From sequence record PQ843332.1: a stretch of 64,000 nucleotides of DNA; one strand, written 5' to 3'. Origin of the DNA: Escherichia phage P-GXEC-L2P5. Position numbers and translations under genes: made by a program. Below the pieces are notes generated by a model. That model searched no databases. It saw nothing but the letters and a program-made list of their open reading frames with translations, and was not told the origin of the DNA. Shown here piece after piece: positions 4,898 to 64,000 of the stretch (positions are counted from its first letter, which is position 1; every line of letters starts with the position of its first letter).

Positions 4898-4899
4898 TC

Positions 4900-10818: not shown

Positions 10819-10820
10819 TA

Positions 10821-12901: not shown

Positions 12902-12905
12902 ATAG

Positions 12906-13580: not shown

Positions 13581-13622
13581 CGTGTGGTCCTCATTGATGC
13601 GGGCCGAAGCCCTCGATTAGAA

Positions 13623-14297: not shown

Positions 14298-14348
14298 CAG
14301 TATTACCCTTTTTAGTGAAGGGGCGGTATTGCCCCGACACGTTTACTA

Positions 14349-14370
14349 TAGTGCAACCAACCTATTGGTT
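14349..14370. promoter_or_regulatory. perfect palindrome TGCAACCAA-TAGG-TTGGTTGCA (operator or intercistronic hairpin)
   Basis: 9-bp perfect inverted repeat seen directly; overlaps the stop codon of the HAD-like gene; same TTGGTTGCA core recurs in other intergenic regions. Confidence 0.5.
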
Positions 14371-23963: not shown

Positions 23964-23978
23964 TTTTCATTGTCCTGT

Positions 23979-24002
23979 TAAAAAGCCCGCATTAAGCGGG
24001 CT
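23979..24002 (-). terminator. rho-independent terminator on minus strand (aagcccgc-ttaat-gcgggctt + ttttta); the unit is triplicated to about 24215
   Basis: Perfect 8-bp stem seen directly; T-run on minus strand. Confidence 0.55.
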
Positions 24003-24175
24003 TGAATAGTGGGCTTTGCCCTTAACGGCGGCGACGGTTACGTGGTGCTTCGTCTTAAAAAGCCCGCATTAAGCGGGCTTGAATAGTGGGCTTTGCCCTT
24101 AACGGCGGCGACGTTTACGTGGTGCTTCGTCTTCGTCGTCGTCCATTAAGCGGGCTTGAATAGTGGGCTTTGCCC

Positions 24176-24850
24176 TTAACGGCGGCGACGTTTACGTGGC
24201 GCTTCGTCTTCGTCGTCGTCTTCGTCATCGTCATCACGACGTTTTGACTTTTTGGACTTACGCGGGCTTTCATCTTCGTCATCGTCGCCCAGGTCTTCGT
24301 CGGAACATGAAGACCCGCCACCGCCGAAGGCTTCGCCGTCATCACGGAAGCGCATACCCAGCAGACCACAGCCTAAGCCTTTGCCGTTGGTATTGTTCCA
24401 GGCCCAAATATCTAAGGAAACGTTGCAATAGCAACCGGAATAGATTTCCTTCCCTTCGATTTCGTCGCCGTCGATGGTCAGACCCTGCTCCGTCTGCTTC
24501 TCGCCTTCGGAAGTCTGGATGATCGGCTGTTTGAACGATTTGGCGTTGATGTACAACATGCCTTCGAATTCTTCGGTTACTTCGTCGCGCTCGTCACCGT
24601 CGCGAACTGCGCATTCCTTAGAATCCTGGGCGTAGTGGCGGTCCATCCACTTATCGGCATTCTTCTCGGATTTCAGCTTGTCGGTGAGCACTGCGCGCGC
24701 TGCCGCTTCCACTTTGTCCACCTGCGGATCTTCTTTATCAAGAAGAATCACGGCGCGGTATGCCGGTTTTTGTCCATCCTGTTTAGGGGTATCACGTTCC
24801 CAAATTTTAAGGAAACATACACGCACATTTTTCAGGTTGACTTTAGCCAT
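24176..24850 (-). CDS. single-stranded DNA-binding protein candidate, DUF2815-like with acidic C-terminal tail
   Basis: MAKVNLKNVRVCFLKIWE...IYSGCYCNVSLDIWAWN...GKGLGCGLLGMRFRDDGEAFGG followed by D/E-rich tail; GAGGAA RBS; C-terminus affected by the triplicated unit. Confidence 0.5.
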   Translation of the reverse strand: MAKVNLKNVRVCFLKIWERDTPKQDGQKPAYRAVILLDKEDPQVDKVEAAARAVLTDKLKSEKNADKWMDRHYAQDSKECAVRDGDERDEVTEEFEGMLYINAKSFKQPIIQTSEGEKQTEQGLTIDGDEIEGKEIYSGCYCNVSLDIWAWNNTNGKGLGCGLLGMRFRDDGEAFGGGGSSCSDEDLGDDDEDESPRKSKKSKRRDDDDEDDDEDEAPRKRRRR

Positions 24851-31352: not shown

Positions 31353-31610
31353 ATCCTATTTTGAGTGTTTTTAGCTGGTCGCATTGGTTGCCGTGCAGTA
31401 TAAATATAGTGAATAGTTATGCAATAAAACTGCATAAAGTAAGCGGGACAAAAAGCGGGACAAACTTGGGGCGGGACAAAGCGGGACAGCACCCCCGTCC
31501 CGCCCCGGATGACGCGGCCTGGAGAGGAGCGGGACAGGCGGGACAACTCCCAGTCTTTCAGACTAGACGGGGGTCAGCGGCCCCCCTCGTCTGAGACTGC
31601 ATAAAATCCG
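31353..31610. repeat. non-coding repeat module R2, paralogue of R1
   Basis: aagcgggacaaaaagcgggacaaacttggggcgggacaaagcgggacagcacccccgtcccgcc is nearly identical to R1 226-290; same hairpin at about 31553-31607. Confidence 0.7.
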
Positions 31611-46136: not shown

Positions 46137-46496
46137 ATGATAATGGCGGGCTTTAATTACGCTGGGTTAAAGCGGAAAGTCAATCCGCTGATTAAAAAGT
46201 TCGGCATGACGGCTACGGTGACGCGTCCGGGGTCGGTTGACCGCGTAGACGGCGACGAAGTGATAATCCCGCCAACGTCGTTCGACGTCATCGGTCTTCG
46301 AGAGGAGTACAAGCCAAGCGAGATCGACGGGACGCGTATCGTTGCCGGTGATGTGAAGTTTTTGTGTCAGGCCGTCAAGCAGGTAAAGGTCGGGGATTTG
46401 GTTAGCCTGAACAATACAGACTACCGGGTTATCAATCCAAACCCCCTGCAACCGGCGGGCCAGACCATGCTGTTTCAACTACAGCTAAGGGGCTAA
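46137..46496 (+). CDS. hypothetical structural protein (head-tail connector region)
   Basis: 119 aa intact ORF in morphogenesis operon. Confidence 0.35.
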   Translation: MIMAGFNYAGLKRKVNPLIKKFGMTATVTRPGSVDRVDGDEVIIPPTSFDVIGLREEYKPSEIDGTRIVAGDVKFLCQAVKQVKVGDLVSLNNTDYRVINPNPLQPAGQTMLFQLQLRG

Positions 46497-46497
46497 C

Positions 46498-47243
46498 GTG
46501 GCTGAAGTCTACTCATTCGCCGCCACTATTGCTACATGGGTGGATAAGACGAAGGAGAACAACGATAAGATAACGTGGCTGAAGTCTACTCATTCGCCGC
46601 CACTATTGCTACGTGGGTGGATAAGACGAAGGAGAACAACGATAAGGCGGTGCGGGCGTACGGAATGCAAATACTCGGACGCCTTATTGAGATCTCCCCG
46701 GTGGGCGACCCTCGCCGGTGGAAAATTAACAAGGCTTATGCAATGGCCCGCCAGCACGCGAACAAGGTGAACGCCGCACAGCGCCGCAAGAATGGCGGCA
46801 AACTGAAGCGCGGGCAGAAGAAGCACGCCAGTGTGCTGGTATCATTCAAGACTAAAAACGGCAATGTGACATTCCGCCAGCGCGGCTGGGCCGCGAAGAA
46901 CTACACCGGGGGGCGCTTCCGGGGGAACTGGCAGGTGACATTTGATCGCCCGGCTGTCGGTGCTATTGACCGCGTTGACAAGGCCGGAACGGCAACATTA
47001 GCCGCGGGGCGTGAAGTGCTGGCGCATTACGATTCGAGTGAATACGGGTCGATCTGGTTTACTAACAACGTGCCATACGCGCAGCGACTTGAGTATGGCT
47101 GGAGTAAACAACCGGTGAATACGGGTCGATCTGGTTTACTAACAACGTGCCATACGCGCAGCGACTTGAGTATGGCTGGAGTAAACAAGCGCCCGCGGGG
47201 ATTGTTCGCGTCGTAGCGGCAGAAATTAATTCGAAGGTGAAAT
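46498..47243 (+). CDS. hypothetical neck / tail completion protein (frame broken by duplications near 46500-46640 and 47060-47180)
   Basis: GTG start at 46498 immediately after upstream stop; stop TAA 47241-47243 abuts next ATG. Confidence 0.35.
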
Positions 47244-47805: not shown

Positions 47806-48531
47806 ATGGGTTATCAACTTCCTAACGGGTCCAGCGTGCAGATCGGGTCCGTATTGGGTGCAGGCATCGCAGTTACGGCAGCGACCAACGCCGCGGCGTC
47901 AATCTCCGATCTTACGCAAGGCTGCGTTATCACCTGCGCGGAGTCGCATGGTCTTGCTGTGGGAGACGTGGTTATGTTCACTAAAACCCCGTGGGTACGT
48001 GCGCTTAACCGCGCGTTCATCGTGGGTAAAGTGGATGCTAACGACGTGACGCTGGCGCGCTTCGATACTCAAGACGTAACCAAATACCCGACCGGTGCTT
48101 TCGGCGTAGGCACACCGGGTGAGGTGGTGAAGGTGTCGAGCTTTATCGACTTCCCGTTTATCACTAACGTTGGTGTGTCGGGTGGCGACCAGCAGACCAC
48201 CACCTTCCAGCCGTTGCAGGTGAATACCGCGATCAGTCTGAACACCACGAAAAACCCGTTGGTCCAGACCTACACTTTCACCCACGACGAAGAAGACCCG
48301 ATCCGCCCGATTCTGGAAGACCTGGACGACACACAGAAAACCACTGTGATTAAGTTCACCAACCCGGCAGCGGCAAGCGGCAAAGGTGAGATCCGCATTT
48401 ACCCGGCTAAGGTGTCTTTCCAGAAGATTCCATCTGCTGAAGTAAACAACGTGGAGACGGTGGAGTCCACCCTCACTATGCAGTCCGATATGGTTATTTA
48501 CCGTAAGGACTTGGTCGAGGCGCTGTCGTAA
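47806..48531 (+). CDS. major tail protein candidate
   Basis: Intact 241 aa ORF; position directly upstream of G/GT chaperone genes; followed by terminator. Confidence 0.5.
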   Translation: MGYQLPNGSSVQIGSVLGAGIAVTAATNAAASISDLTQGCVITCAESHGLAVGDVVMFTKTPWVRALNRAFIVGKVDANDVTLARFDTQDVTKYPTGAFGVGTPGEVVKVSSFIDFPFITNVGVSGGDQQTTTFQPLQVNTAISLNTTKNPLVQTYTFTHDEEDPIRPILEDLDDTQKTTVIKFTNPAAASGKGEIRIYPAKVSFQKIPSAEVNNVETVESTLTMQSDMVIYRKDLVEALS

Positions 48532-48561: not shown

Positions 48562-48587
48562 GGGGCCAGTACGGCCCCTTTTTTATT
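48562..48587 (+). terminator. rho-independent terminator (ggggccagtacggcccc + tttttt)
   Basis: Perfect stem plus T-run. Confidence 0.6.
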
Positions 48588-48600
48588 GGAGAATTACATA

Positions 48601-48963
48601 ATGGCTAAATCACCACTCTTCACACTTGACCCTAAGCCGACCTTTAAGCTACCGATTGAGATCCCGCGCCCCGGAGAAAACGAACCTGGCAAAATGACGT
48701 TTACCGTGCGCCACCGTCCGATCGACGAGTTTTCGCAGACCATGCAGGATACTGAGCGCAAGTTGTCAGAATATGACGACAATGACCCGGACGGCTTTAA
48801 TGTTATGGTCGAGGCCATCATGCACGTCGCAGAAGGCTGGAATCTGCCGGACGAATTTAACGCGGAGAACGTCCGCCGCCTGGTGGTCAACTACCCGCGC
48901 GCGTTCGGCGTGTTCCATACGTCGTACTACCTCGAATTGATGGGGTTGCGTGAAAAAAACTAA
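48601..48963 (+). CDS. tail assembly chaperone, lambda gpG-like
   Basis: 120 aa ORF (MAKSPLFTLDPKPTF...) with GGAGA RBS; ends with slippery A-AAA-AAC then TAA. Confidence 0.6.
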   Translation: MAKSPLFTLDPKPTFKLPIEIPRPGENEPGKMTFTVRHRPIDEFSQTMQDTERKLSEYDDNDPDGFNVMVEAIMHVAEGWNLPDEFNAENVRRLVVNYPRAFGVFHTSYYLELMGLREKN

Positions 48964-49432
48964 TTGAGGCGGCGCGGCGCTTTTATGGCCCGCCCACTTC
49001 GTACTATCTCGAACTGATGGGATTGCGTGAAAAAAACTAATTGAGGCGGCGCGACGCTTTTATGGCCCGCCGCCACCCTCCGAAGATTTAGCCGCGAGTT
49101 TATGGGGCGCGGCCCCTGAAGATGTTTGCCCACCAGTTGCGCTATGGCCCGACAACGCGAAGGTAGTCGCCGTCTTCACGGATTGCTCCACGCAATGGCG
49201 CACCGGATTCGGCGGCGCATACGGCATCGACTACGGCGTACTGGAATGGCTTTTTAAGATGCACGGCATCGAAAACGCGCCGGATTCGGTGGCGCATACG
49301 GCATCGACTACGGCGTACTGGAATGGCTATTTAAGATGCACGGCATCGAAAACGCGCAACGTGCGTTTAAAGATATCAAGCTAATGGAACGCGTTGCGCT
49401 GGATGAAATGGCGCGGCAGAACCCCGCATAAC
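48954..49432 (+). CDS. gpT-like extension reached by -1 frameshift from the G-like gene (region contains duplications near 48937-49080 and 49180-49330)
   Basis: The -1 frame after AAAAAAC reads KKLIEAARRFYGPPPPSEDLAASLWGAAPEDV... and ends ...KLMERVALDEMARQNPA-stop at 49432. Confidence 0.5.
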
Positions 49433-49893
49433 GGAGCGGGACAGGCGGGACGTCCCGTTTTGTCCCGCCACCACTAAACCGCATATATACTCACTTTCAT
49501 TGCATAAATTAAAAGCGGGACAGGGGTGCTGTCCCGCTTTGTCCCGCCCCCAAAATGTGAATATCTATTCGATTTTCGTGCATAAAACAAACGGGACAAA
49601 AAGCGGGACAGAATTGGGCGGGACAAAGCGGGACAGCACCCCTGTCCCCGCCAGTGCTGCCGCGGGTTTTAGCCGATCGGGACAGGCGGGACAAAGCCCA
49701 GTCTTTCAGACTAGACGGGGGGTCTGTCACCCCCCTCGTCTGAGACTGAATAAGGTTTGTTTTAAATTCGCTGATACAATGACCGACGGCAACTGCATAA
49801 AAAGGGCCCCCCTCGTCTGAGACTGAATAAGGTTTGTTTTAAATTCGCTGATACAATGACCGACGGCAACTGCATAAAAAGGGGGACTGCATA
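49433..49893. repeat. non-coding repeat module R3, second-copy counterpart of R1
   Basis: Same GCGGGACA arrays, inverted pair GCGGGACAGGGGTGCTGTCCCGC, hairpin and TGCATAAA boxes; ORFs called here are spurious. Confidence 0.7.
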
Positions 49894-52800
49894 ATGGCAG
49901 ATCAGGCAGCGGGCATCACGCTCAAGGCGGACGTCGCGCAAATTAAAACGGCGAATACTGTGCTGGACACATTTGCGCAGAAATCCGAGAACACAGAACA
50001 GAAAGTCAAAAAATTAAACGACACCCTCGGCAAGTCGAAAAAGGTCACTGGCGACGCCGCGGGCGGAATGGAAAAGTTAGCGACTGAATCGCAGCGCGCC
50101 GCCGACGGCATGACGAAACAGGAGCGACTAGCCAGCCGATTAGGCATGTCGACCAAGAACCTGGGATTCGCATCGCCGCCGACGGCATGACGAAACAGGA
50201 GCGACTCGCCAGCCGATTAGGCATGTCGACCAAAAACCTGGGATTCGCATCGCGGAACGCCGCATTCCAGTTACAGGATATCGCGGTTACGCTTGAGATG
50301 GGTATGCCGGTGCACCGCGTCATGCTTCAGCAGCTACCGCAGCTTACTGGGGCGTTTGGCGGACTGGGAAACACGCTGCATTATGTCGTCGGCACACTCG
50401 GCCCGTTAGGGATTGGCATCGCTGCATTAACGGCAACGCTCGGCGTAGGGGTGGCAATTACGACCCGCGCAGAGAACCAGGTGGCGGCGCTTAATAAGAC
50501 GCTGGCGCTGTCCGGTAATATTTCAGGCCTGACAGCTAACCAGATCCTTGTGCTGTCCGAGAACGCCGAGCGCATGGGCGGGTCATTTCGCAAGACGCGT
50601 GACACAATCCAGGCGCTGGCGGCGGCGGGTGTGAAAGCGGGTGGTGACTTTGGCGCATTGGCTAAGGTAGTGAATGACTTTGCGAAGGTGTCCAGCCAGC
50701 CGATCGAGGATGTGGTGGCGGCGGTGGCGAAGCTGTCAAGAAGGTAGTGAATGACTTCGCGAAGGTGTCCAGCCAGCCGATCGAGGATGTGGTAGCGGCG
50801 GTGGCGAAGCTGTCAACCGACCCCGTTGGCGGACTGCGTGCGCTGGCGGATAAGTATCACGTCGTAAACGAAGCGCAGATCCAGCAGGTACAGTCGCTCG
50901 TTGATGCGGGTCGTGAGACAGACGCAGTTGCGTTGGCTAACAAAACAGCCGCTGCGTCGTTCACCAGCATGACCAATGAGATCAAGGCGAACATGGGTAC
51001 GCTTGAGCGATCTATGAACGTCGTCACATCGGCAGCCAAATCAATGTGGGACGCTATCCTGGATGTGGGTCGCGCGCAGTCCTCCAATGAGTCCGAGATG
51101 AAAGCGCGCGAATCACTCCAGCGCATGACCACGGCTTACTATGCCGAGATGAAAGCGGTAAACGCTGCCGGTGGGGTAATGACTGAAGCGCACTGCAGCG
51201 GCTGACCACGGCTTACTATGCCGAGATGAAAGCGGTAAACGCTGCCGGTGGGGTAATGACTGAAGCGCAGAAAGCACGTATTAACATGCTTTACAGCGAA
51301 CTGGTCGCCCAGGAAAAAGTGGTGGCGTCGCTCACCCTGCGTAACCGTGCGGAGCGAGACAACGCCCGCGCCGCAGATGAATCCGCAAAGGCGAACGAGG
51401 AGGCCAACCGCACCGCCCGCGACCGCGCCGCGTTTGAAAAGGAGTACGCAACTAACGCGAAGAAGCGCGCCGACGAGATCGCCCGCCTCAATTTGCTGAA
51501 TAAGCGCGGCGTTATTGATGAGAAAGAGCTTGCCGAGGCGGTTAAGCAGGTAAACGAGCGTTACAAAGACCCGGCCCCGAAGAAGGCCGCGGCTGTTCGC
51601 GTGGATGCCGGTATGAAAATGCTGGAAGTCGCACGGAGCGAACTGGCCCAGCTCCGAAAAAGGCCGCGGCTGTTCGCGTGGATGCCGGTATGAAAATGCT
51701 GGAAGTCGCACGGAGCGAACTGGCCCAGCTTCGAGAATCCGGCAAGCAGATCGAAGCCAACGCGTCTACGCAGACCCGCACGCAACGCGCGCAAGCGGCC
51801 TTAAACAAGCTGATCGCCGACAATGAGCAGTTAATCGCCGCAAGCAAAGAAAGAGCGCTAACGGCAGCCGAAAAGCAGCAATTAGTCGAGTTCGGGCGCG
51901 TGAAGGAAGTCCGCGAGCAGATCGTCGAAGAAGCCAAATTGCTGGACGCGAAAGAGAAGCAGGTTAAGGCGCACGCGCAGATCGATGCCTTCGTTAAGAA
52001 CCAGAACGCCGAACTATGCTGGATGCGAAAGAGCAGCAGGTTAAGGCGCACGCGCAGATCGATGCCTTCGTTAAGAACCAGAACGCCGAACTAAAAGCCA
52101 CCGCCGCGGGGTATGCGCTTTCCACTCGCGAAGCGGCAAACCTGCGCGAAGAATTGCAGCTAATCGACCGCCTGAAGCGTGTAGGCGCTAACGATACCGA
52201 TATTGACAAGGCGGTGTCTAAGCTGCGAGAATGCAGCTAATTGACCGCCTGAAGCGGGTTGGCGCTAACGATACCGATATTGATAAGGCGGTGTCTAAGC
52301 TGCGAGAAGTGCAGGAAGCACAGACCGGCGCTAACGCCTCGTTATGGGATGGATTCAGTCGCGGGCTTAAGGATAGCGTGGATGAAATGGGTAACGGATA
52401 TACGCAGATGGCGTCTCTCACGAAATTCACATTCAGCGCTATGCAGGACACGATGAACGAGTTTTTCGAGACTGGCAAGCTGAACGCAAAGGATATGGTT
52501 AAGTCCATCCTGAGCGAATTAATCAAGCTGGCTACCTCGCAGGCGTTCAAGTCCATCGTTAGCGCTTTCGGTGGCGACGGCGGCAAAAACGGATTGTTCG
52601 GCGCTATCTTCTCGGGCCTCACCAAGAATGCGGACGGCGGAGCGTACGTGGCGACGGCGGCAAAAACGGATTGTTCGGCGCTATCTTCTCGGGCCTCACT
52701 AAGAATGCGGACGGCGGAGCGTACACCGGAGGCAATCTCGCGGCCTATTCGGGGCAAGTGGTGAGCCAGCCTACCTTTTTCAGTTATGGCGTCCAGGCGT

Positions 52801-53152
52801 TCGCTAAGGGCGCTGGGTTGATGGGTGAGGCTGGACCCGAGGCCATCATGCCGCTGAAGCGCGGGCCGGACGGGAAACTGGGCGTTGCCGCGTCTGGCGC
52901 AGGCGGTGGTATGGTCGTGACGACTAACGTTTACACGGGGACCGGTAAAACGGATACCAGTGTGCCGCGTCTGGCGCAGGCGGTGGTATGGTCGTGACGA
53001 CTAACGTTTACACGGGGACCGGTAAGACGGATACCAGTGTCAGCGGGCCGGATCCCCGTACCGCGCAGGCGTTCGGCAAGCAAATCACCGAGGCGGTGAA
53101 GGCCGAGATCGTGAAGGCGACGAAACCGGGTGGTGTACTTTACAAACGATGA
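49894..53152 (+). CDS. tail length tape measure protein, second copy (fragmented by tandem duplications)
   Basis: ORFs 49894-50190 through 52671-52997 are collinear with 605-3401 at about 95% aa identity. Confidence 0.7.
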
Positions 53153-53186
53153 TAAAATGGCCCTCACTACAACGTGGGGGCTTTTT

Positions 53187-54017
53187 ATGTCACAAGGTAC
53201 AATCACACTAACGAAAGGAAGTAAGACCGTCACGGGCGCGGGAACGGCGTTCCTTAGCGAGATCGGGAAGGTACTCGTATTCGCCCGCATCGACGGCAAC
53301 GACTACACCGGCAAAATTGCGGCATTCAACTCGAACACGGTCATTACTCTGAAAGATAACTGGGCCGGGACGGCAACGACTACACCGGCAAAATTGCGGC
53401 ATTCAACTCGAACACGGTCATTACTCTGAAAGATAACTGGGCTGGGCCGACGAAATCCGGTGCGGCATATGAGCTAATCGAAGCACACGACCCGCGATCA
53501 AACGAATGGCCCTATTACTGGCACATGCAATTGCAAGGCGGCGGAGTGAGCTAATCGAAGCACACGACCCGCGATCAAACGAATGGCCATATTACTGGCA
53601 CATGCAATTGCAGGGCGGTGGCGACGTGCAGTTAGCTTTCCGGTCGGAGGAATTGCAATTCGGTAACGGTTACGGACAGAACATCGCGGACGGCCCGAAC
53701 GCCGAAACGAAACAGTTCCCCGTGCAATTCGTCGGGCTGACTACGGACAAATGGTGCGCATCGCGGACGGCCCGAACGCCGAAACGAAACAGTTCCCCGT
53801 GCAATTCGTCGGGCTGACTACGGACAAATGGTGCAATCCTAAACTGGTTTACAACTTCCTTCGCGGTCACTTCGTAAAACCGTTTGTCGTCACAGCACCA
53901 GATGGCGAAACAGGTTTATTCGTGGTCGAGCGTTCGAGCTTGTCGTACACGGACAACGGGCACTACACGGCAACGGTATCCGCCACCCTTAAGACTGCTA
54001 TTGGATTCGTAAGATGA
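53187..54017 (+). CDS. minor tail protein, gpM-like, second copy (frame broken by duplications near 53330-53430, 53470-53620 and 53690-53840)
   Basis: Collinear with 3436-4112. Confidence 0.5.
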
Positions 54018-54879
54018 ATAAACTTTATCGCGAGGCGACGCGCTTTGACCCATCGGGCCGCGTTCGCCTGATTCACATTGACGCGCAGGACGTGGAACCA
54101 GGCGACGGCGCGATCGGAGCGGGCCATCACTATTTTCATTACTGCTTCATTCCGCTGACGCGCAGGACGTGGAACCCGGAGACGGCGCGATCGGCGCGGG
54201 CCACCACTATTTTCATTACTGCTTTATCCCACACACTGCGGAGGATATCGCTGCCGCGGGTGGTGACGAGGATAAGCTAAAACCTAAATCAATCTTCTTC
54301 GGCGGGCAGGAGTTCGAATTTTGGCCCTTCGATTTGTCCGGCCTTAACTTTTCCACATCGACGGCAGCAGAACCGCAACTAACAATCGTCGATATTGGCG
54401 GCATAATAACCCGGCTGTCACTGAATCACGACCAGCTACTGGGCGCGAAGGTTGAAATAATCGACACATTCGCGAAGTTCCTGGATAACGGGTCGGACCC
54501 AGACCCGACGCAGAAACGAGTGCAGGAGTATTACATCGACTCGCAGGTCGGGCGCAATCCAGGCAAGCAAATCACCTTCGCACTATCCTCCCCCGCGGAT
54601 ATGGAAGGGCAGGTCGTTCCCCGTCGCCAGATCATGAACATGTGCGAATGGGCGCTCAACGGGAAGTACGCCAGCGGGGACGGTTGCACATGGAACCTTG
54701 CACAGCCTGGAATAAAGTATTACGACGAGCGAGGTAATGAAGTCATCGCAATGAATATGGACCGATGCGGCGGCTGTTTGTCCGACTGCTATCTTCGTTT
54801 TGGGCAAGGGCTTGCGGATCCTAAAGCTGCGGTGCTGGACTTCGGTGGTTTTCCTGGGTCCAAATTAATCAAGGGGTAG
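54014..54879 (+). CDS. minor tail protein, gpL-like, second copy (frame broken by duplication near 54090-54200)
   Basis: Collinear with 4109-4897. Confidence 0.7.
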
Positions 54880-54881
54880 CC

Positions 54882-55622
54882 ATGTTAACGAAAAAGGTTA
54901 AAAGCGATATCGCCGCGCACGTTGCGGCATGTCTGCCTGAAGAAGCCTGTGGCCTTGTTGTCATGGTGGGCCGCAAACAAGTATTTGTCCCGTGCATGAA
55001 CGTATTCGAAGACCCGACCGGCGTGCGCTCACGCAGAGACGCATTCACGATTAGTGATATGGCCTGGATGGATGCCGAGGATATGGGCGACGTCGTGCGA
55101 GTAGTCCACTCGCATCCAGGCCAGCGAGAGCTTACACCCTCACTTGGCGACGTTAACGGATGCAACGGCAGCGGCGTAGTCTGGACCATCACTAACGAAT
55201 ATGGCGACTTTATCGAGATCGACCCTGAAGACCCGCCGCTGGTAGGCCGCCGATTTGTTCTCGGAATTACAGATTGTTATGGCCTCGTCATGGACTGGCA
55301 CAAAAAGCAGGGTGTAAACCTGCCAGACTTCCGCGTGCCGTATAACTGGTGGGAGACAGGCGAAAATCTGTATATGGATAATTGGTACGGTGCTGGCTTC
55401 AGGGAATGCGAGGAGAATACGCCGGGGGCAATGGTCATCATGCAGATTAGCGCGCCTGTGCCTAACCACGCTGGGATATTCCTTCCGGGCAACCAACTAC
55501 TACACCATATCTACGGCAGCCTGTCGAGCGTGATTCCCTTCCGGTCAGGATTTTTCCGGGACAATGTGGTTAAATGGGTACGTCATAAAGACCTACCGGG
55601 GAATATAACAGAATGGCAATGA
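54882..55622 (+). CDS. tail assembly protein, gpK-like, second copy
   Basis: Intact 246 aa ORF; about 11 substitutions relative to 4900-5640. Confidence 0.8.
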   Translation: MLTKKVKSDIAAHVAACLPEEACGLVVMVGRKQVFVPCMNVFEDPTGVRSRRDAFTISDMAWMDAEDMGDVVRVVHSHPGQRELTPSLGDVNGCNGSGVVWTITNEYGDFIEIDPEDPPLVGRRFVLGITDCYGLVMDWHKKQGVNLPDFRVPYNWWETGENLYMDNWYGAGFRECEENTPGAMVIMQISAPVPNHAGIFLPGNQLLHHIYGSLSSVIPFRSGFFRDNVVKWVRHKDLPGNITEWQ

Positions 55623-56384
55623 CCACATTTAAATTATACGGCGTTTTAGGACGTCGATTCGGTAAAGTGCATAAGCTGGACTGCTTCACTCCGGGCGAGG
55701 GTATCACCGGCCTGTGCGTGAAGTTACCCGGCTTACAGGACTTTCTAATGTCGGCCCACCTGGACAATATGATGTTCAAGGTGCGCAAAGGCGACCACAC
55801 GATGACCGGCTATGATGAGCTGGGCGAGTTCCACGGCAACCGCGTATGATGTTCAAGGTGCGCAAAGGCGACCACACGATGACCGGCTATGATGAGCTGG
55901 GTGAGTTCCACGGCAACCGCGTCGTTACCATCGCGCCGGTTATGACGGGCGCAAAAAGAGGGTTGGGACAATTGCTGGCGGGTGTCGCGATCGTAGTGGC
56001 GTCGTTCTATACGGGCGGACTTGCTACTGCCGCTTTCGGGGCTTCGGCTGCAACCGCTGCCGCTATCGGGACGGCGACGTTTTCGTTCGGGATGTCGATG
56101 GCGCTGGGTGGCGTTATGCAATTGCTGTCGCCACAACCGAAAGGATTGCAGACAAGGCAGGACGTGGATAACAAAGCGTCGTACGCGTTCGGCGGGCCTT
56201 GCTGTCGCCACAACCGAAAGGATTGCAGACAAGGCAGGACGTGGATAACAAAGCGTCGTATGCGTTCGGAGGCCCAGTAAACACTACCGCGCAAGGCACG
56301 GCGCTTGGTGTATTATGGGGCGAGCGTGAGATCGGCGGCGCTATTATTTCAGCCGGAATCGTAACCGAGGACTTGAACGAATGA
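55613..56384 (+). CDS. tail assembly protein, gpI-like, second copy (frame broken by duplications near 55790-55880 and 56150-56260)
   Basis: Collinear with 5631-6248. Confidence 0.6.
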
Positions 56385-59300
56385 CGATTATCTACGACGT
56401 CACAGGGCATAAAGGCGGCGGCGGCAAACAGCACACCCCGCAGGAGACGCCCGATAGCCTGCATTCGCTGGCTAAAATCCGCATCTTGCTTGCGCTGGGG
56501 GAAGGGGAATTCGAAAGTATTACCAGCGCCAGCGAATTGCGGCAGCGTGTATATCTGGACGGAACACCGATCCAGAACGCGGACTTGTCCGAAAACTTCC
56601 CCGGCGCGCGTGTGGAGTTCCGCCCCGGAACACAGCACCAGGATGTGATCCACGGATTTTCAGCGGTGGAAAGTGAGCAATCTGTCGGCGTAAAACTGGA
56701 AAACGGCACGCCGTGGGTGCGCCAGATTAACGACACCAGCTTGGACGCCGTGCGCATTCGCATCGGCATTCCGGCACTGTACACAAACGAAGATAATGGC
56801 GACCTGGTGGGCGGGCGCATCGACTATAAGATCGTTGTGTATACGGATAACGCCGACCCGCGTGAGTTCAGATTCGCCGCCGTTGGTAAAACAATGTCGA
56901 CTATAAGATCGTTGTGTATACGGATAACGCCGACCCGCGTGAGTTCAGATTCGCCGCCGTTGGTAAAACAATGTCGCTGTATGAGCGCGACCACCGCATA
57001 GAATTACCTCCGAACGTTAACACCGGCTGGCGCGTGGAGGTGCACCGCATAACGGCAGACTCCACATCGGCGAAAGTGGTTAATGATATCCGGGTGCAGT
57101 CCATCACTGAGATTATTGACGCCCGCCTGCGTTACCCGCTAACCGCGCTGTTGTTTGTGGAGTTCGACGCCAAAGCGTTCCAGAACATCCCGCGCGTGCC
57201 CGCCTGCGTTACCCGCTAACCGCGCTGTTGTTTGTGGAGTTCGACGCCAAAGCGTTCCAGAACATCCCGCGCGTGTCCATCAAGTGCAAAGGCCGCAAAG
57301 TTCTAATACCGAACAACTACGACCCGATCAATCATACCTATGCCGGGTACTGGGACGGCACGTTTAAACGCGCATGGACGGATAACCCTGCGTGGCACTG
57401 GTACGATATTTGTATTACTGAGCGCTTCGGCCTCGGTCGGCGTATCAAACCGCAAATGCTAAACCGATACGCGCTCTGTACGATATTTGTATTACTGAGC
57501 GCTTCGGCCTCGGTCGGCGTATCAAACCGCAAATGTTAAACCGGTACGCGCTCTACCAGATTGCGCAGCGCTGCGATCAGTTGGTCAGCGACGGCAACGG
57601 TGGTCGAGAAATCCGCTTTAAGAATGATATGTACATTCAGTCACAGACGGATGCCTGGACCGTGCTTAAGGATTTAGCCGCCATCTTCGCTGGGATGACC
57701 TGGTGGGGAAACCAAATGTTGAATATCGTCAGTGACCAACCGGTCGCAGCAGTGTCGCACACTATCACCAACGCCTCGGTTATTGATGGCCGATTCGACT
57801 ACGCATCAGTGACCAACCGGTCGCAGCAGTGTCGCACACTATCACCAACGCCTCGGTTATTGATGGTCGATTCGACTACGCGTCCGGTAGCCAGAAAACT
57901 CGGTATTCCACATTCGCGGTAGCATACGGCAACCCGAAGAACCACTATGAAGATGCCATCGCAACGGGGCAACGTGTCGAACTGGTACGCCGCCATAAGA
58001 TTAACCGTCTTGATATAACGGCGATCGGCTGTACGCGTGAGTCAGAAGCGCAACGACGTGGGCACTGGGCGCTAATCTCCAACCAGCTTGACCAGCAAGT
58101 TAGCTTTAAGGTGGGCATGGAGGGACTTTTCTTTATTCCTGGTAGCGTAGTCGCGATCGCCGATACAAACATTTCTGGCGGCTTCGAGACACGCGGCGGT
58201 CGCCTGTTGTCGGACCCTGGCACGCGTACCGTGCTTAACACGGACAGCGAAATCACATTCCGCCCAGGTGATAAATTCCTGGTACGCACCGATAGTGGTA
58301 ATGTAGAGACTCGCGAGATCGCCAGCGTCAACGGCAACAAGGTTACGCTAAAAACCGCACTGGACGCCGACCCGATTCCTGATCAGCCGTTTTGCGTCGA
58401 TGGCAACGATATCCAGTTGCAGAAGTTCCGCATCACCGACCTGGAATATGACGACTCTACGAGCACTTTCTCGGTGCGCGGGATTGAATACAACGATAGC
58501 AAGTATGATGCCGTTGATAATGGCGCTCGCCTTGATCCTGGTATCTTCACGCAAGTGCCCGACGGGGTAATGAAGGGGCCGGAATCCGTGACCATCACCC
58601 CGTCGCAGATTTCATCGCAAGGACAGCTAATCACCAACGTGGATATTGTTTTCGGCCGGAATCCGTGACCATCACCCCGTCGCAGATTTCATCGCAAGGA
58701 CAGCTAATCACCAACGTGGATATTGTATTCCCTCCGGTGAAGGATGCCGTGGTGTATGAAATCCAGTGGAGGCGTACCAGCCTTCAGAATATGGAAATCC
58801 AGTGGGGTAACGACTGGGTGAATATCCCACGCACGGCGTCGAACGGCGCGCACATCCCTAACGTGTTCTCCGGTAACTACCAGGCACGCGTCCGCGCGAT
58901 CGGTATGGGCGAGATTTCATCTCCGTGGGTGTCGTCCGCCATCACGCCGGTGGAAGGTCGTCTCGGTGGGCTTAACGCACCAATCATCACCAACGCTATT
59001 TCGGGCCTTCACCAGATCTTGTGGAAGTGGAACCACAACAACGCCGCTACTGATATCTCGTACACCGAGCTTGAAGTGCGCAAGACCGGTGAGACTGAAT
59101 GGAAATTCCTTACCAACGTCCCATATCCGGGGGCGGAGTATGCGCAAACATCGCTGGAGTTCGGAATTTACCAGCAGTTGCGCGCCCGTGTAGCGGATAA
59201 AATCGGCAACCTGTCGGACTGGTCGGCCCCGTTTGAAGGGCAGGTGAGTGACAAAGTTGACGAGTACATGAAGGGGCTTGATGACGAGTTCTTGACTTCC

Positions 59301-60339
59301 GAGGATGGTAAACGCTTCCAGGAAGCAATCAAGTTGACGAGTACATGAAGGGGCTTGATGACGAGTTCTTGACTTCCGAGGATGGTAAACACTTCCAGGA
59401 AGCTATTAACACGATCCCGCAAGGCATTTATGAGTCAATGCTCACCGACGCCCAGCAGCTATTCAACGCCCGCGCCGAGTACAAAGGGATTTATGCGGAA
59501 ATCAAGGTCGCGTATAACGTGGCGGCGGACGCCCACAAGGCGGTCGCTCAACTGGAGACGTTGATCGGCACGCGACTTGATGACGCGGAAGCTGCGATCC
59601 ACACGTTGCAGACGGCGCAGACGCTCAACTGGAGACGTTGATCGGCACGCGACTTGATGACGCGGAAGCTGCGATCCGCACGTTGCAGACCGCGCAGAGC
59701 ACACAGGAACAAGCGTTCGCCCAGTACCAGCAAACTGTTGCCGCTAAGTTCGGGGAACAGGAAGCCGCCATCCAGCAGGTACAAACGGCAACCGCAGACG
59801 TGGCGGGAGCGCTGGCGGAATATAAGACCCAGGTCGCTACACAGTTCGGTCAGCAGTCCGCCGCTATCGAGCAGAAGATGACGTCCTCGTTTAACCACTC
59901 TGGTGGTAGCGCCACGTATAGCCTTAAGGCTGGCGTGACATATAACGGGACTTATTATGATGCGGGTATGCAGCTCTCCGTCGTGACGTCTGGCAACGCG
60001 GTTAAATCGCGTATTGCGTTCAAGGCGGACCAGTTCTACATCATGCATCCGTCCAATGGGACGCTGTCGTCTGCGTTTATTGTGGACGGTGGCGCGGTGT
60101 ATATCGACACGGCACGCATCAAGAACGCGTCCATCAACTTCGCGCAGATAACAGACACGCTGCAATCGAATAACTACGACGGCAGCACGCGCGGCTGGCG
60201 CTTAGGGAAAGATGGAACGTTTATCAACCTGGGCACCGGTAGCGGCGGCGGGATGAAACAGACGAACACAAGAATCAGCGTGAAGGACGGAAACGGCGTT
60301 CTCCGCGTGCAGATTGGTGAGCTTACTGGTAGCTGGTAG
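56381..60339 (+). CDS. host specificity protein, gpJ-like, second copy with divergent C-terminal domain (fragmented by at least seven duplications)
   Basis: N-terminal about 1,000 aa collinear with 6322-9826; extra repeat block and a different last ~60 aa. Confidence 0.75.
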
Positions 60340-60375
60340 TATAGGGGCTTCGGCCCCTTTTTAACGAGGTTATTT

Positions 60376-60678
60376 ATGGCATTCGGTATCGCAACGTGGG
60401 ACGCGCAAGGACGCCCAAACAACTACGGCATTAAACCGGTAAGCGTGATCGGAAGGATTCATCTTGCGGAAGGACAAAAATCAGGCGCATGGTCATTCCC
60501 TGTACCGGCGGGGATGAAGGTCGGATACGTGGTCGCACTGGATAAAGGCGCGGTCGGGCCAGGACGCAGAATATCTGCCAGCGGGAACACTATCACGGTT
60601 TCCGCGGCAAGTGCAGTAGGTGGCGGGGTTTACTCCGCATCTGAATGTGACGTTATTGTTTTTGTGGAGCGAGCATAA
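60376..60678 (+). CDS. hypothetical protein specific to second copy
   Basis: Intact 100 aa ORF replacing the minus-strand cassette found after gpJ in copy 1. Confidence 0.4.
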   Translation: MAFGIATWDAQGRPNNYGIKPVSVIGRIHLAEGQKSGAWSFPVPAGMKVGYVVALDKGAVGPGRRISASGNTITVSAASAVGGGVYSASECDVIVFVERA

Positions 60679-61429
60679 TGGCTAATTACGGCGCGTTGAT
60701 TGACTTACCAAACGGCAACCCGTTTATCACGCCAGAATCGACGCCGTTTTGTCTCTTCCGCCGTGTGGTTGTTGGGTCTTCGGCTAACGGCACTGCGCAG
60801 TCGGCGGCTGCCGATATTAATTTGGGTGGTGACTACCCTGCAATAGCGTTTGTTAAAACTACGCACACCGCCCAGCCGACCGTCGTAGGGTCTTCTCGCG
60901 TTGGTAATGTGGTGAAGGTGAGCGCCAGCAATCCATTCGGGCAGGGCTTCACGATGACGGCTTACATCTTTGCTATATTCCCACAGACCCTTCCGCGGTG
61001 GGGCTTCGCTATTTGGGATAAGACGGGGAAGCTAGTGCTTACTAATGAGAGTCGCGTACTAAGTCCCTTCCGCGGTGGGGCTTCGCTATTTGGGATAAGA
61101 CGGGGAAGCTAGTGCTTACTAATGAGAGTCGCGTACTGAGCGATTTAGTTACCGTCGGGTCGCCTGGCGCTAACGGGGGGATTAACATTGATCAGACGCT
61201 AAACGGCAGCTACGCCGTCGCACCGGGAATATTGGGGTCTACGCTGATCCGGTTTTTTGTGCAGGGCCAGCCGCAGGTAATATCGGTAACGGCGTACACG
61301 GGGGCCAGATTTGATGGGTCGCGAACTCGTATATCGGCAGCGTCGTCGGGGAACGCCACGGGGGATGTGGTGGGGTATACTAACAACGGCAACGCGATTA
61401 TGGCGATTAACACTGCCAATTATGATTGA
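60678..61429 (+). CDS. hypothetical protein specific to second copy (duplication near 61030-61130)
   Basis: ORFs 60678-61112 and 61112-61429; ATGA-type overlap with upstream gene. Confidence 0.4.
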
Positions 61430-61430
61430 A

Positions 61431-61456
61431 GAAAGCCCCGAAAGGGGCTTATTTGC
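61431..61456 (+). terminator. bidirectional rho-independent terminator (aaagccccgaaaggggctt)
   Basis: Perfect stem between convergent genes. Confidence 0.55.
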
Positions 61457-61667
61457 AGGTTGTGCTTTTGAAATGGTCTACAGACACGTACTGGAAGCTA
61501 AACGGATAACCCGCCCTTAGCATTTTATGCCCGGAGAAGTCCGCAACACCATACACAGGTACCGCATAATCCATGCCGCTATTCTGGTATGTGGCGTCGC
61601 AGACTTTAGCGGGCATGTTGGCACAACCGGACAAAAGAACCGCACAAATCATAATTAAAGTTTTCAT
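61449..61667 (-). CDS. small lipoprotein, second-copy variant with unrelated mature domain
   Basis: Same signal peptide MKTLIMICAVLLSGC as 10821-11042; mature part ANMPAKVCDATYQNSG... is unrelated. Confidence 0.5.
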   Translation of the reverse strand: MKTLIMICAVLLSGCANMPAKVCDATYQNSGMDYAVPVYGVADFSGHKMLRAGYPFSFQYVSVDHFKSTTCK

Positions 61668-61747
61668 GGTATCATCTCCTATATTTGGTCGAGTTTCAGT
61701 ATTACACCGCTCAACCAGGATTGCAACCAATTTATGAGGATTTAGCT

Positions 61748-63526
61748 ATGGCAGCGGGCACACTATCCGTAACGAATAACAGCAAGGCGGTTGTAGGGGT
61801 CGGCACAACGTTTACCTCGTTTAACGCTGGCGACTTCTTAACGCTGGTGGTAGGACAAGTCCCCTACACCGTAGCAATCGCGTCCATTGAAAGCGAAACC
61901 GCGCTTACGCTGGTGTTGCCGTTCGACGGCCCAACGGCAACCGGCCTCGCGTGGGATGGCGTTAAGCGCGATACCATGTCACTGGCGACGATGGGTGTAA
62001 CCGTACAGGCACAGAAAGCATTGCGCTTGATGATTGCAGATGAAAACAACTGGCGTGCAATCTTCGGCGACGCTGAAGAAATCACCGTGACGCTGCCTAA
62101 CGGGCAGGTAATGCAGGGTATGTCATGGGGCTACCTGTCGCAGTTGATGAAACAGATCGACCCCGTTGAGATGCTAAACCTGCAACAACAAGCCGCCGCA
62201 TCGGAAGCAGCCGCGCAAGGATACCGCGACCAGGCCGAAGGCATTAAAACCGAGACGGCAGGCATCCGCGACGACACCAGGTTGATTAATGCTGATACGC
62301 TGGCGATCCGCAACGACACCGATGCCATCAGGACGAATACCAACCAGATTAAATCAGATACGCAGGCCATTAAGGACCAGACGAACCAGATCAAGACGGA
62401 CACCGGCGTTATTCGCGACGAAGCCAATACCGCGAAGACGGACGCGCAATCCGCCCGCGATGCTGCGCTGGGATACCGGAACGAGGCCGAACAGTTCAAG
62501 AATGAGATCGACCCGTCGAAACTTCTGGCAAAGGCCAACAACCTTAGCGACGTTGCCGACCCCGCGGCAGCGCGCGACCACTTAGGCATCGGGCCTGACG
62601 ACACCCTTAACCTTGGTGGCCTGGTAACGTCCGGCAGTATCTCCGCGGGCCGCAACACATGGGATGGGTCTAACTGGGGGAGCCAGGGACTTCTCGCCTC
62701 ATTAGTGGTCCTATACCCGGACGGAAGCTCAGCCCCAGGCTTATACGTGCGAAAATCCAACGGCGACAGCGGATATGCGGCGGGATGGTTGTATAACGAG
62801 AACAGTATCAGTTGGGCTACTAACGCGCGTATTGCGGGCTTTCAGTTCCGGTCCCCTAAAGGCGCGATGGGGTATAACCAGCTATGGTCAGAGGCTGTGG
62901 TGCGTGCGGACGACTTCATGGCACAGAATGGCGCGGAAAACTATAAGTCGTTAATCGCGGGGGCCGCTACAACGCAAGGTCACGGATACTCGGGCGGTGT
63001 CTCGTTCGGGATAATGACAACTGGCATAAACAACTGGCCCCGGGCGCAGATCTCGATCGGCACAGCAGACCGTGACGCCGCTGGGAATATGGCTTCGCAG
63101 ATGCACTTCCGCTTTAATGAATATGGGCAGATTTCTTACACAGGGCCACTGGGGACGGGGTCGTTCCAGCAAGTACCTGCGTCGGATCGCAACCTGAAGC
63201 ATGACATTGCCGATGACGCAAGCAGCACCGCCTACGACAATATCAAGGCTTTGCGGTTCCGCACGTTCGTATTCAACAACGATGAACAGGAACGGCAGCG
63301 TCGCGGTATTATTGCGCAGGAAGCGGAAGAAATCGACCCGCTGTATGTGAAGCACCGCGTGTATAACAATCACGAATTAAATGGGCCTCTGGTGCACCAG
63401 CTTGAACTGGATACGACACCGCTGTTACTCGACACTATGCGAGCGTTGCAGGATACGATTAAGCAGGTGGAGGATTTGAAGGCGGAGATCGCAGCGATGA
63501 AGCAGGCGGAAGAGTTGAAGAAATAA
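61748..63526 (+). CDS. tail fibre protein, second copy, with different distal domain and same type of C-terminal chaperone
   Basis: N-terminal about 300 aa collinear with 11123-12901; distal domain non-homologous; C-terminal ...RRGIIAQEAEEIDPLYVK...DLKAEIAAMKQAEELKK. Confidence 0.7.
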   Translation: MAAGTLSVTNNSKAVVGVGTTFTSFNAGDFLTLVVGQVPYTVAIASIESETALTLVLPFDGPTATGLAWDGVKRDTMSLATMGVTVQAQKALRLMIADENNWRAIFGDAEEITVTLPNGQVMQGMSWGYLSQLMKQIDPVEMLNLQQQAAASEAAAQGYRDQAEGIKTETAGIRDDTRLINADTLAIRNDTDAIRTNTNQIKSDTQAIKDQTNQIKTDTGVIRDEANTAKTDAQSARDAALGYRNEAEQFKNEIDPSKLLAKANNLSDVADPAAARDHLGIGPDDTLNLGGLVTSGSISAGRNTWDGSNWGSQGLLASLVVLYPDGSSAPGLYVRKSNGDSGYAAGWLYNENSISWATNARIAGFQFRSPKGAMGYNQLWSEAVVRADDFMAQNGAENYKSLIAGAATTQGHGYSGGVSFGIMTTGINNWPRAQISIGTADRDAAGNMASQMHFRFNEYGQISYTGPLGTGSFQQVPASDRNLKHDIADDASSTAYDNIKALRFRTFVFNNDEQERQRRGIIAQEAEEIDPLYVKHRVYNNHELNGPLVHQLELDTTPLLLDTMRALQDTIKQVEDLKAEIAAMKQAEELKK

Positions 63527-63528
63527 GA

Positions 63529-63555
63529 GAGGGGCCATACAGCCCCTTTTTAGTT
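63529..63555 (+). terminator. rho-independent terminator (gagaggggccatacagcccc + ttttt)
   Basis: Stem-loop plus T-run after tail fibre gene. Confidence 0.55.
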
Positions 63556-63626
63556 TGAGTTTTCCCAGTCCATTTTGCGCCGCACCAGCGGGCTTTCGTA
63601 ATATTCCTTCCCCTCCACTTCCATTT

Positions 63627-64000
63627 TTAGTTTGAGTTTTCCCAGTCCATTTTGCGCCGCACCAGCGGGCTTTCGTAATATTCCTTTCCTTCCACTTCCA
63701 CCAAAGGCCAGTCGTTCACAATCACGTATGGCTCCGCGATATCCTCAATCACGCCGTGCGCGCTTTGCGGCCCTAACGACACACCAACCAGGATAACACC
63801 GGCAACGCGACGGGTCAGATATTCGCGAGCGCAACGTGCCTCAACCAGCCCACGACGGATGCCGCTGGTGGCCTTAACCTCGTAGGCCCATACGGCATCA
63901 ATCATGTGTTCTTTGTAGTCAGGGCCGGACTTAACCTTGCGCTTGCCGACCATGATAATATCGCCGCGGTCGATAGTGTTAGCGCTAAACAGGCCAGTAC
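63627..64000 (-). CDS. hypothetical protein, homologue of 12928-13580 (partial; 5' end beyond window; duplication near 63550-63680)
   Basis: ORF 63627-63953 closely matches 12928-13254. Confidence 0.3.
   Translation of the reverse strand, partial: TGLFSANTIDRGDIIMVGKRKVKSGPDYKEHMIDAVWAYEVKATSGIRRGLVEARCAREYLTRRVAGVILVGVSLGPQSAHGVIEDIAEPYVIVNDWPLVEVEGKEYYESPLVRRKMDWENSN

What the first reader, a model, noticed from the sequence alone, without database searches (positions are those of the whole stretch)
48954..48960. Programmed -1 frameshift site A-AAA-AAC joining the G-like chaperone to a T-like extension
The G-like ORF ends ...REKN-stop with the slippery heptamer A AAA AAC directly before TAA. 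The -1 frame continues into a ~150 aa extension ending at 49432, and the identical C-terminal peptide at 1-66 shows the same arrangement at the other copy. This matches the conserved G/GT frameshift of long-tailed phages. A duplication (about 48937-49080) repeats the slippery site and would interrupt the fusion in this exact sequence.
Basis: partly seen in the sequence, partly recalled or inferred. Interest (0 to 1): 0.4.

Follow-up and report, generated by a model that had tools for sequence, protein, structure and literature searches.

The report
Phage tail-chaperone frameshift, assembly-garbled
This is the ordinary, well-known -1 ribosomal frameshift that long-tailed phages use to make a short and a long tail-assembly chaperone, here in an HK578-like (Dhillonvirus) coliphage, and the "duplication" that breaks it is one of 80 identical-length (77-nt) assembly artefacts scattered through the window.

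Summary
The heptamer A_AAA_AAC is at 48954-48960, in phase, directly before the TAA stop of a 120-aa ORF (48601-48963). That ORF is a Pfam Phage_TAC_4 tail assembly chaperone. The -1 frame encodes a DUF1799 domain. The window is a Dhillonvirus, 99.5% identical to phage JL1 here.

The raw sequence cannot make the fusion. Two 77-nt tandem duplications interrupt the -1 frame, at about 48918-49071 and at 49199-49352. They are two of 80 duplications of exactly 77 nt in the window. JL1, HK578, SSL-2009a and 19 IMG/VR relatives lack them. They are assembly joins, not biology.

With the second copies removed, the T extension is 105 aa (not about 150) and GT is 225 aa. The two frames overlap by only 10 nt, bounded by TGA and TAA, which pins the shift to the A-run.

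Comparative support is strong:
- 37 relatives, down to about 30% identity, keep an in-phase slippery site at the G stop and a -1 ORF of 100-106 codons.
- The T region evolves as coding sequence.
- It has no conserved start codon.
- A GC-rich hairpin lies 7 nt downstream, where synonymous variation is suppressed.

The homologous phage Tls already has this frameshift annotated.

The parts
48562..48584 (+). Intrinsic-terminator-like hairpin plus T-run between the major tail protein gene (47806-48531) and G
   Evidence: stem GGGGCCAGTACGGCCCC followed by TTTTTT. Also present in JL1.
48588..48591 (+). GGAG ribosome-binding site, 9 nt upstream of the G start codon
   Evidence: Read directly from the sequence. 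The start matches the annotated start in JL1, Kenya-K19 and HK578.
48601..48963 (+). G: tail assembly (tape-measure) chaperone, 120 aa, 0 frame, intact in the window
   Evidence: Translation. Pfam PF08748 Phage_TAC_4, E 1.4e-23, full-length match. PHROG 569.
48951..48953 (+). TGA in the -1 frame; upstream limit of the frame overlap
   Evidence: the -1 frame is open from only 2 codons before the shift point, so the overlap with G is 10 nt.
48954..48960 (+). Slippery heptamer A_AAA_AAC (native copy)
   Evidence: Identical and in phase in 34 of 37 related loci.
48961..48963 (+). TAA stop of G, directly 3' of the heptamer
   Evidence: A stop directly follows the heptamer in 36 of 37 loci.
48960..48995 (+). 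T extension, native segment 1 (-1 frame: LIEAARRFYGPP...)
   Evidence: Collinear with JL1.
48996..49072 (+). Artefactual second copy of a 77-nt unit. It holds a second heptamer (49031-49037) and a second TAA (49038-49040), and carries SSL-2009a-type alleles. Boundaries are ambiguous by about 1 nt.
   Evidence: Absent from JL1, Kenya-K19 and SSL-2009a and from 19 IMG/VR loci. This copy has 6 mismatches to JL1; copy 1 has 0.
49045..49074 (+). Complete GC-rich hairpin (5' arm GGCGGCG 49045-51, 3' arm CGCCGCC 49068-74), 7 nt after the heptamer. After the first heptamer (from 48968) the 3' arm is cut short by the artefact junction.
   Evidence: -22.1 kcal/mol, z -2.67 on the collapsed sequence.: -17.1 kcal/mol, z -2.08 for the commoner allele. 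Third-position variation is suppressed over this zone.
49073..49275 (+). T extension, native segment 2 (start of the DUF1799 domain)
   Evidence: 100% identical to JL1 (H56).
49276..49352 (+). Second artefactual 77-nt copy inside T; shifts the frame again
   Evidence: Absent from all relatives.
49353..49431 (+). T extension, native segment 3, ending at TAA 49429-49431
49894..50190 (+). Start of the tape measure protein gene (itself broken by further 77-nt artefacts). It defines the downstream end of the G-T-TMP module.
   Evidence: MADQAAGITLK.... JL1 gp46 annotation.

Best explanation
The locus encodes the two tail-assembly (tape-measure) chaperones of an HK578-like siphophage.

Most ribosomes translate G (120 aa) and stop at TAA 48961-63. 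A minority slip back one nucleotide on A_AAA_AAC. The lysine and asparagine tRNAs re-pair from AAA-AAC to AAA-AAA. Those ribosomes then read CTA ATT GAG... in the -1 frame, adding a 105-aa DUF1799 'T' domain to give a 225-aa GT protein.

A GC-rich hairpin 7 nt downstream probably pauses the ribosome and raises the slip rate.

By analogy with lambda gpG/gpGT, many copies of G and a few of GT coat the tape measure protein. The T domain recruits the major tail protein, so the fixed slip frequency sets the G:GT ratio.

Shown here: the anatomy, its conservation, the coding status of T, and the lack of an independent start. Inferred: the slip itself, its efficiency, the stimulatory role of the hairpin, and the protein functions.

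The two 77-nt duplications that break the fusion in the window are assembly joins, not part of the phage.
For: - Anatomy: the heptamer is in phase, and the frames overlap by only 10 nt between a -1-frame TGA and the 0-frame TAA.
- Families: Phage_TAC_4 for G and DUF1799 for T; PHROG 569 and 680.
- Gene order is major tail protein, G, T, tape measure.
- tblastn with GT finds 1138 phage records; 734 cover at least 80% of GT. In the listed examples G and T align as two separate pieces.
- In 37 of 37 loci examined, a slippery motif sits at the G stop: 34 A_AAA_AAC, 1 G_GGA_AAC, 2 A_AAG types. All have a -1 ORF of 100-106 codons, while the +1 frame closes early.
- T-frame variable sites fall 23/9/69 by codon position. 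48 codon columns vary only synonymously and 26 change the amino acid.
- No conserved start-like codon occurs before T codon 75, and there is no SD.
- Hairpin: -22.1 kcal/mol, z -2.67. Analogous hairpins lie at the same distance in Tls, a Serratia phage and an IMG/VR clade (z -2.9 to -3.3).
- Third-position variation falls to 2-3 per 12 codons across slip site plus hairpin, against 7-11 elsewhere (Fisher p 3.7e-5).
- The Tls record annotates the homologous pair as a joined CDS. T1-like genome papers note the conserved frameshift (PMC4319613, PMC8104045). The lambda mechanism is reviewed in PMC5009743.
- Artefact: 80 duplications of exactly 77 nt. The window aligns to JL1 as blocks that each restart 77 nt back. 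Copy 1 matches JL1 and copy 2 carries the variants.
Against: - No protein-level or reporter evidence exists for this phage or genus. None was found in the searchable literature.
- A_AAA_AAC is reported as much less shift-prone in E. coli than A_AAA_AAG (PMC5009743), so efficiency may be low.
- The hairpin is not universal. Five of nine diverse relatives show no significant structure.
- The suppressed-variation zone was defined after seeing the hairpin.
- The Dhillonvirus records inspected do not annotate a joined product, and HK578 annotates T as a separate gene with an ATT start.
- In the raw window no intact GT can be made.
Confidence: 0.9

Rival explanations
1. T is a separate gene, translated on its own from the ATT codon (48963-48965) that overlaps the G stop by termination-reinitiation. 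This is how the HK578 GenBank record annotates it. No fusion protein is made.
For: HK578_016 is annotated from that ATT. ATT is present in all 24 Dhillonvirus loci, and ATA or ATC in 6 others.
Against: - ATT is a very weak initiator in E. coli (general knowledge), and no SD precedes it.
- Seven relatives have AAA, AAG or ACC at that codon yet keep the slippery heptamer and the full -1 ORF.
- This model does not explain the conserved in-phase heptamer, the 10-nt overlap bounded by stops, or the suppressed synonymous variation.
Confidence: 0.04
2. The frame change happens at the RNA level. RNA polymerase stutters on the A7 run and adds one A to a fraction of transcripts, which puts T in frame. 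Ribosomal slippage is not involved.
For: The site is a run of seven A residues. Transcriptional slippage on A/T runs is an established route to such fusions (reviewed in PMC5009743).
Against: - Relatives keep the X_XXY_YYZ phase rather than the run length. Most have A6, the Ralstonia phage has G_GGA_AAC, and two have CAAAAG.
- Efficient slippage in E. coli generally needs longer runs (general knowledge).
- A hairpin 7 nt downstream fits ribosomal frameshifting.
Confidence: 0.05
3. The 77-nt duplication is a real feature of this phage genome. It gives two tandem slip sites and an inactivated or re-wired chaperone gene.
For: It is present in the window as given.
Against: - It is one of 80 duplications of exactly 77 nt spread over all genes. 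No other period occurs.
- Each corresponds to a block restart 77 nt back relative to JL1.
- It is absent from every relative examined and from the 158 phage records matched; in all 15 listed hits the alignment breaks into three pieces at the two duplications.
- Copy 2 carries other-strain alleles.
- Such a genome would have most of its genes frameshifted.
- 77 is a standard final k-mer size of short-read assemblers (general knowledge).
Confidence: 0.01

Closest known systems
Phage Tls / T1-like (Drexlerviridae) tape-measure chaperones tfmA/tfmS
   Same: The proteins are homologous: tblastn with GT gives about 37% identity to Tls across both halves. Tls has the same A_AAA_AAC heptamer directly before the stop, the same -1 relation, a T extension of about 105 codons, and a hairpin at the same distance. 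The frameshift is annotated as a joined CDS in Tls (AAR09274.1) and noted in T1-like genome papers (PMC4319613, PMC8104045).
   Different: This is a different genus (Dhillonvirus) at about 37% identity. The hairpin sequence differs. A non-coding gap of about 460 nt with GCGGGACA repeats separates T from the tape measure gene here, whereas in Tls and its relatives the gap is about 25-110 nt.
Phage lambda gpG/gpGT programmed -1 frameshift (Levin et al. 1993; Xu et al. 2004, 2013, 2014, as cited in PMC5009743)
   Same: Same position between the major tail and tape measure genes. Same logic: a short product by normal termination and a long product by a -1 slip near the end of G on an X_XXY_YYZ heptamer.
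   Different: Pfam does not detect any relationship to lambda G or T. The only hits up to E = 1 are Phage_TAC_4 and DUF1799. From my own knowledge, the lambda heptamer is G_GGA_AAG. No efficiency or functional data exist here.
E. coli dnaX -1 frameshift (A_AAA_AAG plus downstream hairpin)
   Same: A lysine-codon A-rich heptamer decoded by the same tRNA-Lys, with a downstream stem-loop at a similar spacing.
   Different: dnaX uses the more shift-prone AAG second codon and an upstream SD-like stimulator, and the shift shortens the product. Here the second codon is AAC, no conserved upstream SD-like element was seen (GGG/GGA/GGC vary), and the shift lengthens the product.

Membership tests
Conserved G/GT-type tail assembly chaperone frameshift of long-tailed phages (Xu et al. 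2004) | Two overlapping ORFs located between the major tail protein gene and the tape measure gene | tested here: met
   Major tail protein 47806-48531, G 48601-48963, T to 49431, tape measure from 49894.
Conserved G/GT-type tail assembly chaperone frameshift of long-tailed phages (Xu et al. 2004) | The second ORF is in the -1 frame relative to the first and lacks its own start signal | tested here: met
   A -1 relation holds in all 37 loci. No ATG/GTG/TTG before T codon 75 and no SD. The only candidate is a non-conserved ATT.
Conserved G/GT-type tail assembly chaperone frameshift of long-tailed phages (Xu et al. 2004) | A canonical slippery sequence lies in phase within the overlap | tested here: met
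   A_AAA_AAC at 48954-48960 within a 10-nt overlap. The motif class is conserved in 37 of 37 loci.
Conserved G/GT-type tail assembly chaperone frameshift of long-tailed phages (Xu et al. 2004) | A fusion protein is actually produced at a low, fixed ratio and is required for tail assembly | not testable with these tools
   Needs mass spectrometry, western blotting or a reporter assay, plus genetics. No such data were found for Dhillonvirus.
Pfam PF08748 Phage_TAC_4 (G half) | Score above the curated gathering threshold over the full-length profile | tested here: met
   83.9 bits against a cut-off of 21.1; residues 1-120 on profile positions 1-124 of 124.
Pfam PF08809 DUF1799 (T half) | Score above the curated gathering threshold over the full-length profile | tested here: met
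   75.7 bits against a cut-off of 26; T residues 23-99 on profile positions 1-80 of 80.
Lambda gpG / gpT sequence families | Detectable sequence homology to lambda G and T | tested here: not met
   The Pfam scan up to E = 1 returned only Phage_TAC_4 and DUF1799. No PDB sequence relative was found. The locus works like lambda G/GT but is not in the same sequence family. Fold-level comparison was not attempted.
Curated RNA frameshift elements (Rfam) | Match to a curated covariance model at the slip site or hairpin | tested here: not met
   No Rfam match at or near the slip site. The only hits are sub-threshold and fall on an intergenic palindrome downstream.

The most novel reading that the evidence does not exclude
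The 0-frame stop codon directly abutting the heptamer (36 of 37 loci) and the downstream hairpin may be functional parts of the signal. Slow termination with the stop in the A site would promote P-site slippage of tRNA-Asn from AAC to AAA. That would make this Phage_TAC_4/DUF1799 family a distinct 'slip-at-stop' subclass of the G/GT frameshift, compensating for the weak AAC second codon in E. coli. The evidence neither demonstrates nor excludes this.
Probability: 0.2. Interest if true: 0.3.

Novelty: already known. Interest (0 to 1): 0.1.

Why it matters
Biologically this adds little. It is the expected G/GT chaperone frameshift, homologous to the one already annotated in phage Tls.

Two practical points follow.

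1. Public Dhillonvirus records, including RefSeq JL1 and SSL-2009a and the type phage HK578, do not annotate the joined product. They mislabel G, and fragments of T, as 'tail length tape measure protein' or 'hypothetical protein'. A simple annotation fix applies to more than 100 genomes.

2. The window is a corrupted, strain-mosaic assembly with 80 untrimmed 77-nt overlaps. Any ORF-level or repeat-level finding from this window must be checked against a collapsed sequence before it is interpreted.

Tried and rejected
- Exact search for the artefact junction string in IMG/VR, JGI metagenome contigs and GTDB genomes gave no hits. The source contig and the assembler could not be identified.
- The search for related loci with a nine-sequence G alignment failed because no stretch was conserved enough. 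I used the single protein instead.
- A PDB sequence search with GT found nothing meaningful. I did not run a structure prediction because the Pfam matches were already decisive.
- An Rfam scan found no curated element at the slip site.
- I looked for an upstream SD-like stimulator of the dnaX type. The GGGG 8 nt upstream is not conserved even within the genus (GGG/GGA/GGC), so I rejected it.
- The hairpin is not a universal feature of the family. It was not significant in 5 of 9 diverse relatives. Column-wise covariation was not attempted because the stems are not column-homologous between lineages.
- Phage Dru_SM5 appeared as a one-piece tblastn hit, which suggested a natural in-frame fusion. 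Its locus has the same two-frame arrangement.
- A real duplication, independent initiation of T and transcriptional slippage were each considered and are ranked low (see the rival explanations).

Full report
**What the window is.** The region around the finding is 99.5% identical to Escherichia phage JL1 (Dhillonvirus, the HK578-like siphophages). 158 phage records match it. The 1651-nt query maps onto only 1497 nt of JL1. The difference is 154 nt, or 2 x 77.

Tandem Repeats Finder and a direct period scan find 80 tandem duplications of exactly 77 nt across the 64-kb window. None occurs at any other period tested between 50 and 127.

Aligned to the whole JL1 genome, the window breaks into about 90 collinear blocks. 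Nearly every block restarts about 77 nt back in the reference. Block identities range from 84% to 99.9%.

At 22 junctions in the JL1-like part, the first copy is JL1-identical (1 mismatch in total). The second copy carries 40 mismatches, at scattered offsets. At the slip site these mismatches are SSL-2009a-type alleles.

The window also runs past one genome length. Positions 1-14.7 kb and 49.3-64 kb cover the same genes but are only 85-95% identical.

The simplest reading is a path through a mixed-strain assembly graph whose k = 77 overlaps were not trimmed. This is an inference. The junction string is absent from IMG/VR, JGI metagenomes and GTDB genomes, so the source could not be traced.

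**Checking the observation.** The heptamer A_AAA_AAC is at 48954-48960. Codons AAA (48955-57) and AAC (48958-60) are in phase, followed by TAA (48961-63). This ends a 120-aa ORF that starts at ATG 48601 behind a GGAG site.

Several details of the finding need correction:
- The duplication is 77 nt (about 48918-48994 / 48995-49071).
- A second 77-nt duplication at 49199-49352 also breaks the -1 frame. In the raw sequence even two slips would not give an intact product.
- With the second copies removed, as in JL1, Kenya-K19 and SSL-2009a, the extension is 105 aa and GT is 225 aa.
- The T stop is at 49429-49431.
- The peptide at 1-66 differs from the other copy at 2 of 21 residues.

**What it is.** G matches Pfam Phage_TAC_4 over its full length (E 1.4e-23). 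The extension matches DUF1799 (E 3.3e-21). PHROGs places both halves in tail families. The genes sit between the major tail protein and the tape measure protein.

In the collapsed sequence the -1 frame is closed by TGA at 48951-53 and the 0 frame by TAA at 48961-63. The two frames overlap by only 10 nt, which is essentially the A-run itself.

**Comparative evidence.**
- tblastn with GT finds 1138 phage records, and 734 cover at least 80% of GT. In the listed examples G and T align as two separate pieces.
- I examined 37 loci: 24 Dhillonvirus records or IMG/VR contigs, four more distant IMG/VR contigs, Drexlerviridae (Tls, BlueShadow, NBD2, ESP2949-1, 26174II, a Klebsiella phage), and Serratia, Pectobacterium, a further Klebsiella phage and Ralstonia phages.
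- 34 of them end G with A_AAA_AAC plus a stop. One has G_GGA_AAC plus a stop. Two have A_AAG-type sites.
- All have a -1 ORF of 100-106 codons, while the +1 frame closes early. The motif class and its phase are conserved while the flanking nucleotides diverge.
- Across 21 Dhillonvirus sequences, variable sites in the T frame fall 23/9/69 by codon position. 48 codon columns vary only synonymously and 26 change the amino acid. The T region is therefore protein-coding in that frame.
- No ATG, GTG or TTG is conserved before T codon 75, and that ATG has no Shine-Dalgarno sequence.

**RNA context.** A hairpin (GGCGGCG...CGCCGCC) starts 7 nt after the heptamer. It folds at -22.1 kcal/mol (z -2.67), or -17.1 kcal/mol (z -2.08) for the commoner allele.

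Hairpins at the same distance but with different sequences occur in Tls, a Serratia phage and one IMG/VR clade (z -2.9 to -3.3). Five other relatives show nothing significant, so the hairpin is a lineage-variable stimulator at best.

Third-position variation within Dhillonvirus drops to 2-3 per 12 codons over the last G codons and the first 12 T codons. Elsewhere it is typically 7-11 (Fisher p 3.7e-5; zone chosen post hoc). The frames overlap by only 10 nt, so dual coding cannot explain this. It points to an RNA-level constraint. No Rfam family covers the site.

**Mechanism.** The best explanation is a programmed -1 ribosomal frameshift on A_AAA_AAC that yields G and GT at a fixed ratio, as in lambda. 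There, G and the G part of GT bind the tape measure protein and the T domain recruits the major tail protein (PMC5009743). In E. coli A_AAA_AAC is less shift-prone than A_AAA_AAG (same review), which fits a low GT fraction. The slip, its efficiency and the protein roles are inferred, not shown.

**Rival explanations.**
- Independent initiation at the ATT overlapping the stop, as the HK578 record annotates it. This fails to explain seven relatives with AAA, AAG or ACC at that codon.
- Transcriptional slippage on A7. This is disfavoured because phase, not run length, is conserved; the Ralstonia site G_GGA_AAC is the clearest case.
- A real duplication. This is excluded for practical purposes by the 80 x 77 pattern.

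**Comparison and novelty.** The closest known system is the tfmA/tfmS pair of phage Tls and the T1-like phages. The proteins are homologous, the heptamer is the same, and the product is annotated as a joined CDS. The frameshift is noted in genome papers (PMC4319613, PMC8104045).

The locus works like lambda G/GT, but Pfam does not place it in the lambda sequence families.

None of the Dhillonvirus records I inspected annotates the joined product, and several mislabel the pieces. No paper in the searchable library describes the frameshift for this genus. That is an annotation gap, not a discovery.

**Verdict.** The feature is already known in kind and interest is low (0.1). The more useful result is that the window is riddled with 77-nt assembly artefacts.

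Noticed in passing
whole window, e.g. 416-570, 13193-13346, 46494-46646, 52571-52724: There are 80 tandem duplications of exactly 77 nt, about one per 800 nt, in genes and intergenic regions alike. One is triplicated at 23978-24210. Each matches a block restart about 77 nt back relative to JL1. They frameshift most ORFs in the window. They look like untrimmed k = 77 assembly-graph overlaps.
   Followed up: yes
window 1-14700 vs 49300-64000: The window covers about 1.3 genome lengths. The two passes over the T-tape measure-tail region are only 85-95% identical. Block identity to JL1 jumps between 84% and 99.9%. The sequence is therefore a mosaic of several Dhillonvirus strains, not one genome.
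   Followed up: partly
49436-49693; also 71-405 and 31443-31545: The GCGGGACA motif occurs 27 times against 3.3 expected. It clusters in the unusually long (~460 nt) non-coding gap between the T stop and the tape measure start, and again just upstream of the helicase-primase gene. The function is unknown; it could be a regulator-binding array or an origin-like element.
   Followed up: partly
49517-49549 / 49616-49648: A perfect 33-nt inverted repeat with a 66-nt AT-rich spacer lies inside the same gap. It explains the sub-threshold miRNA-like Rfam hits on both strands.
   Followed up: no
L001 (JL1) 2302-2978; L003 (SSL-2009a); L036 (HK578) 506-1182: Public annotation of this locus is inconsistent. 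RefSeq calls G a 'tail length tape measure protein' and annotates only a 32-codon (96-nt) fragment of T. HK578 annotates T as a separate gene with an ATT start. No Dhillonvirus record inspected carries a joined CDS.
   Followed up: yes
48562-48584: A strong terminator-like hairpin plus T-run lies between the major tail protein gene and G. It would lower chaperone transcription relative to the tail tube protein.
   Followed up: no
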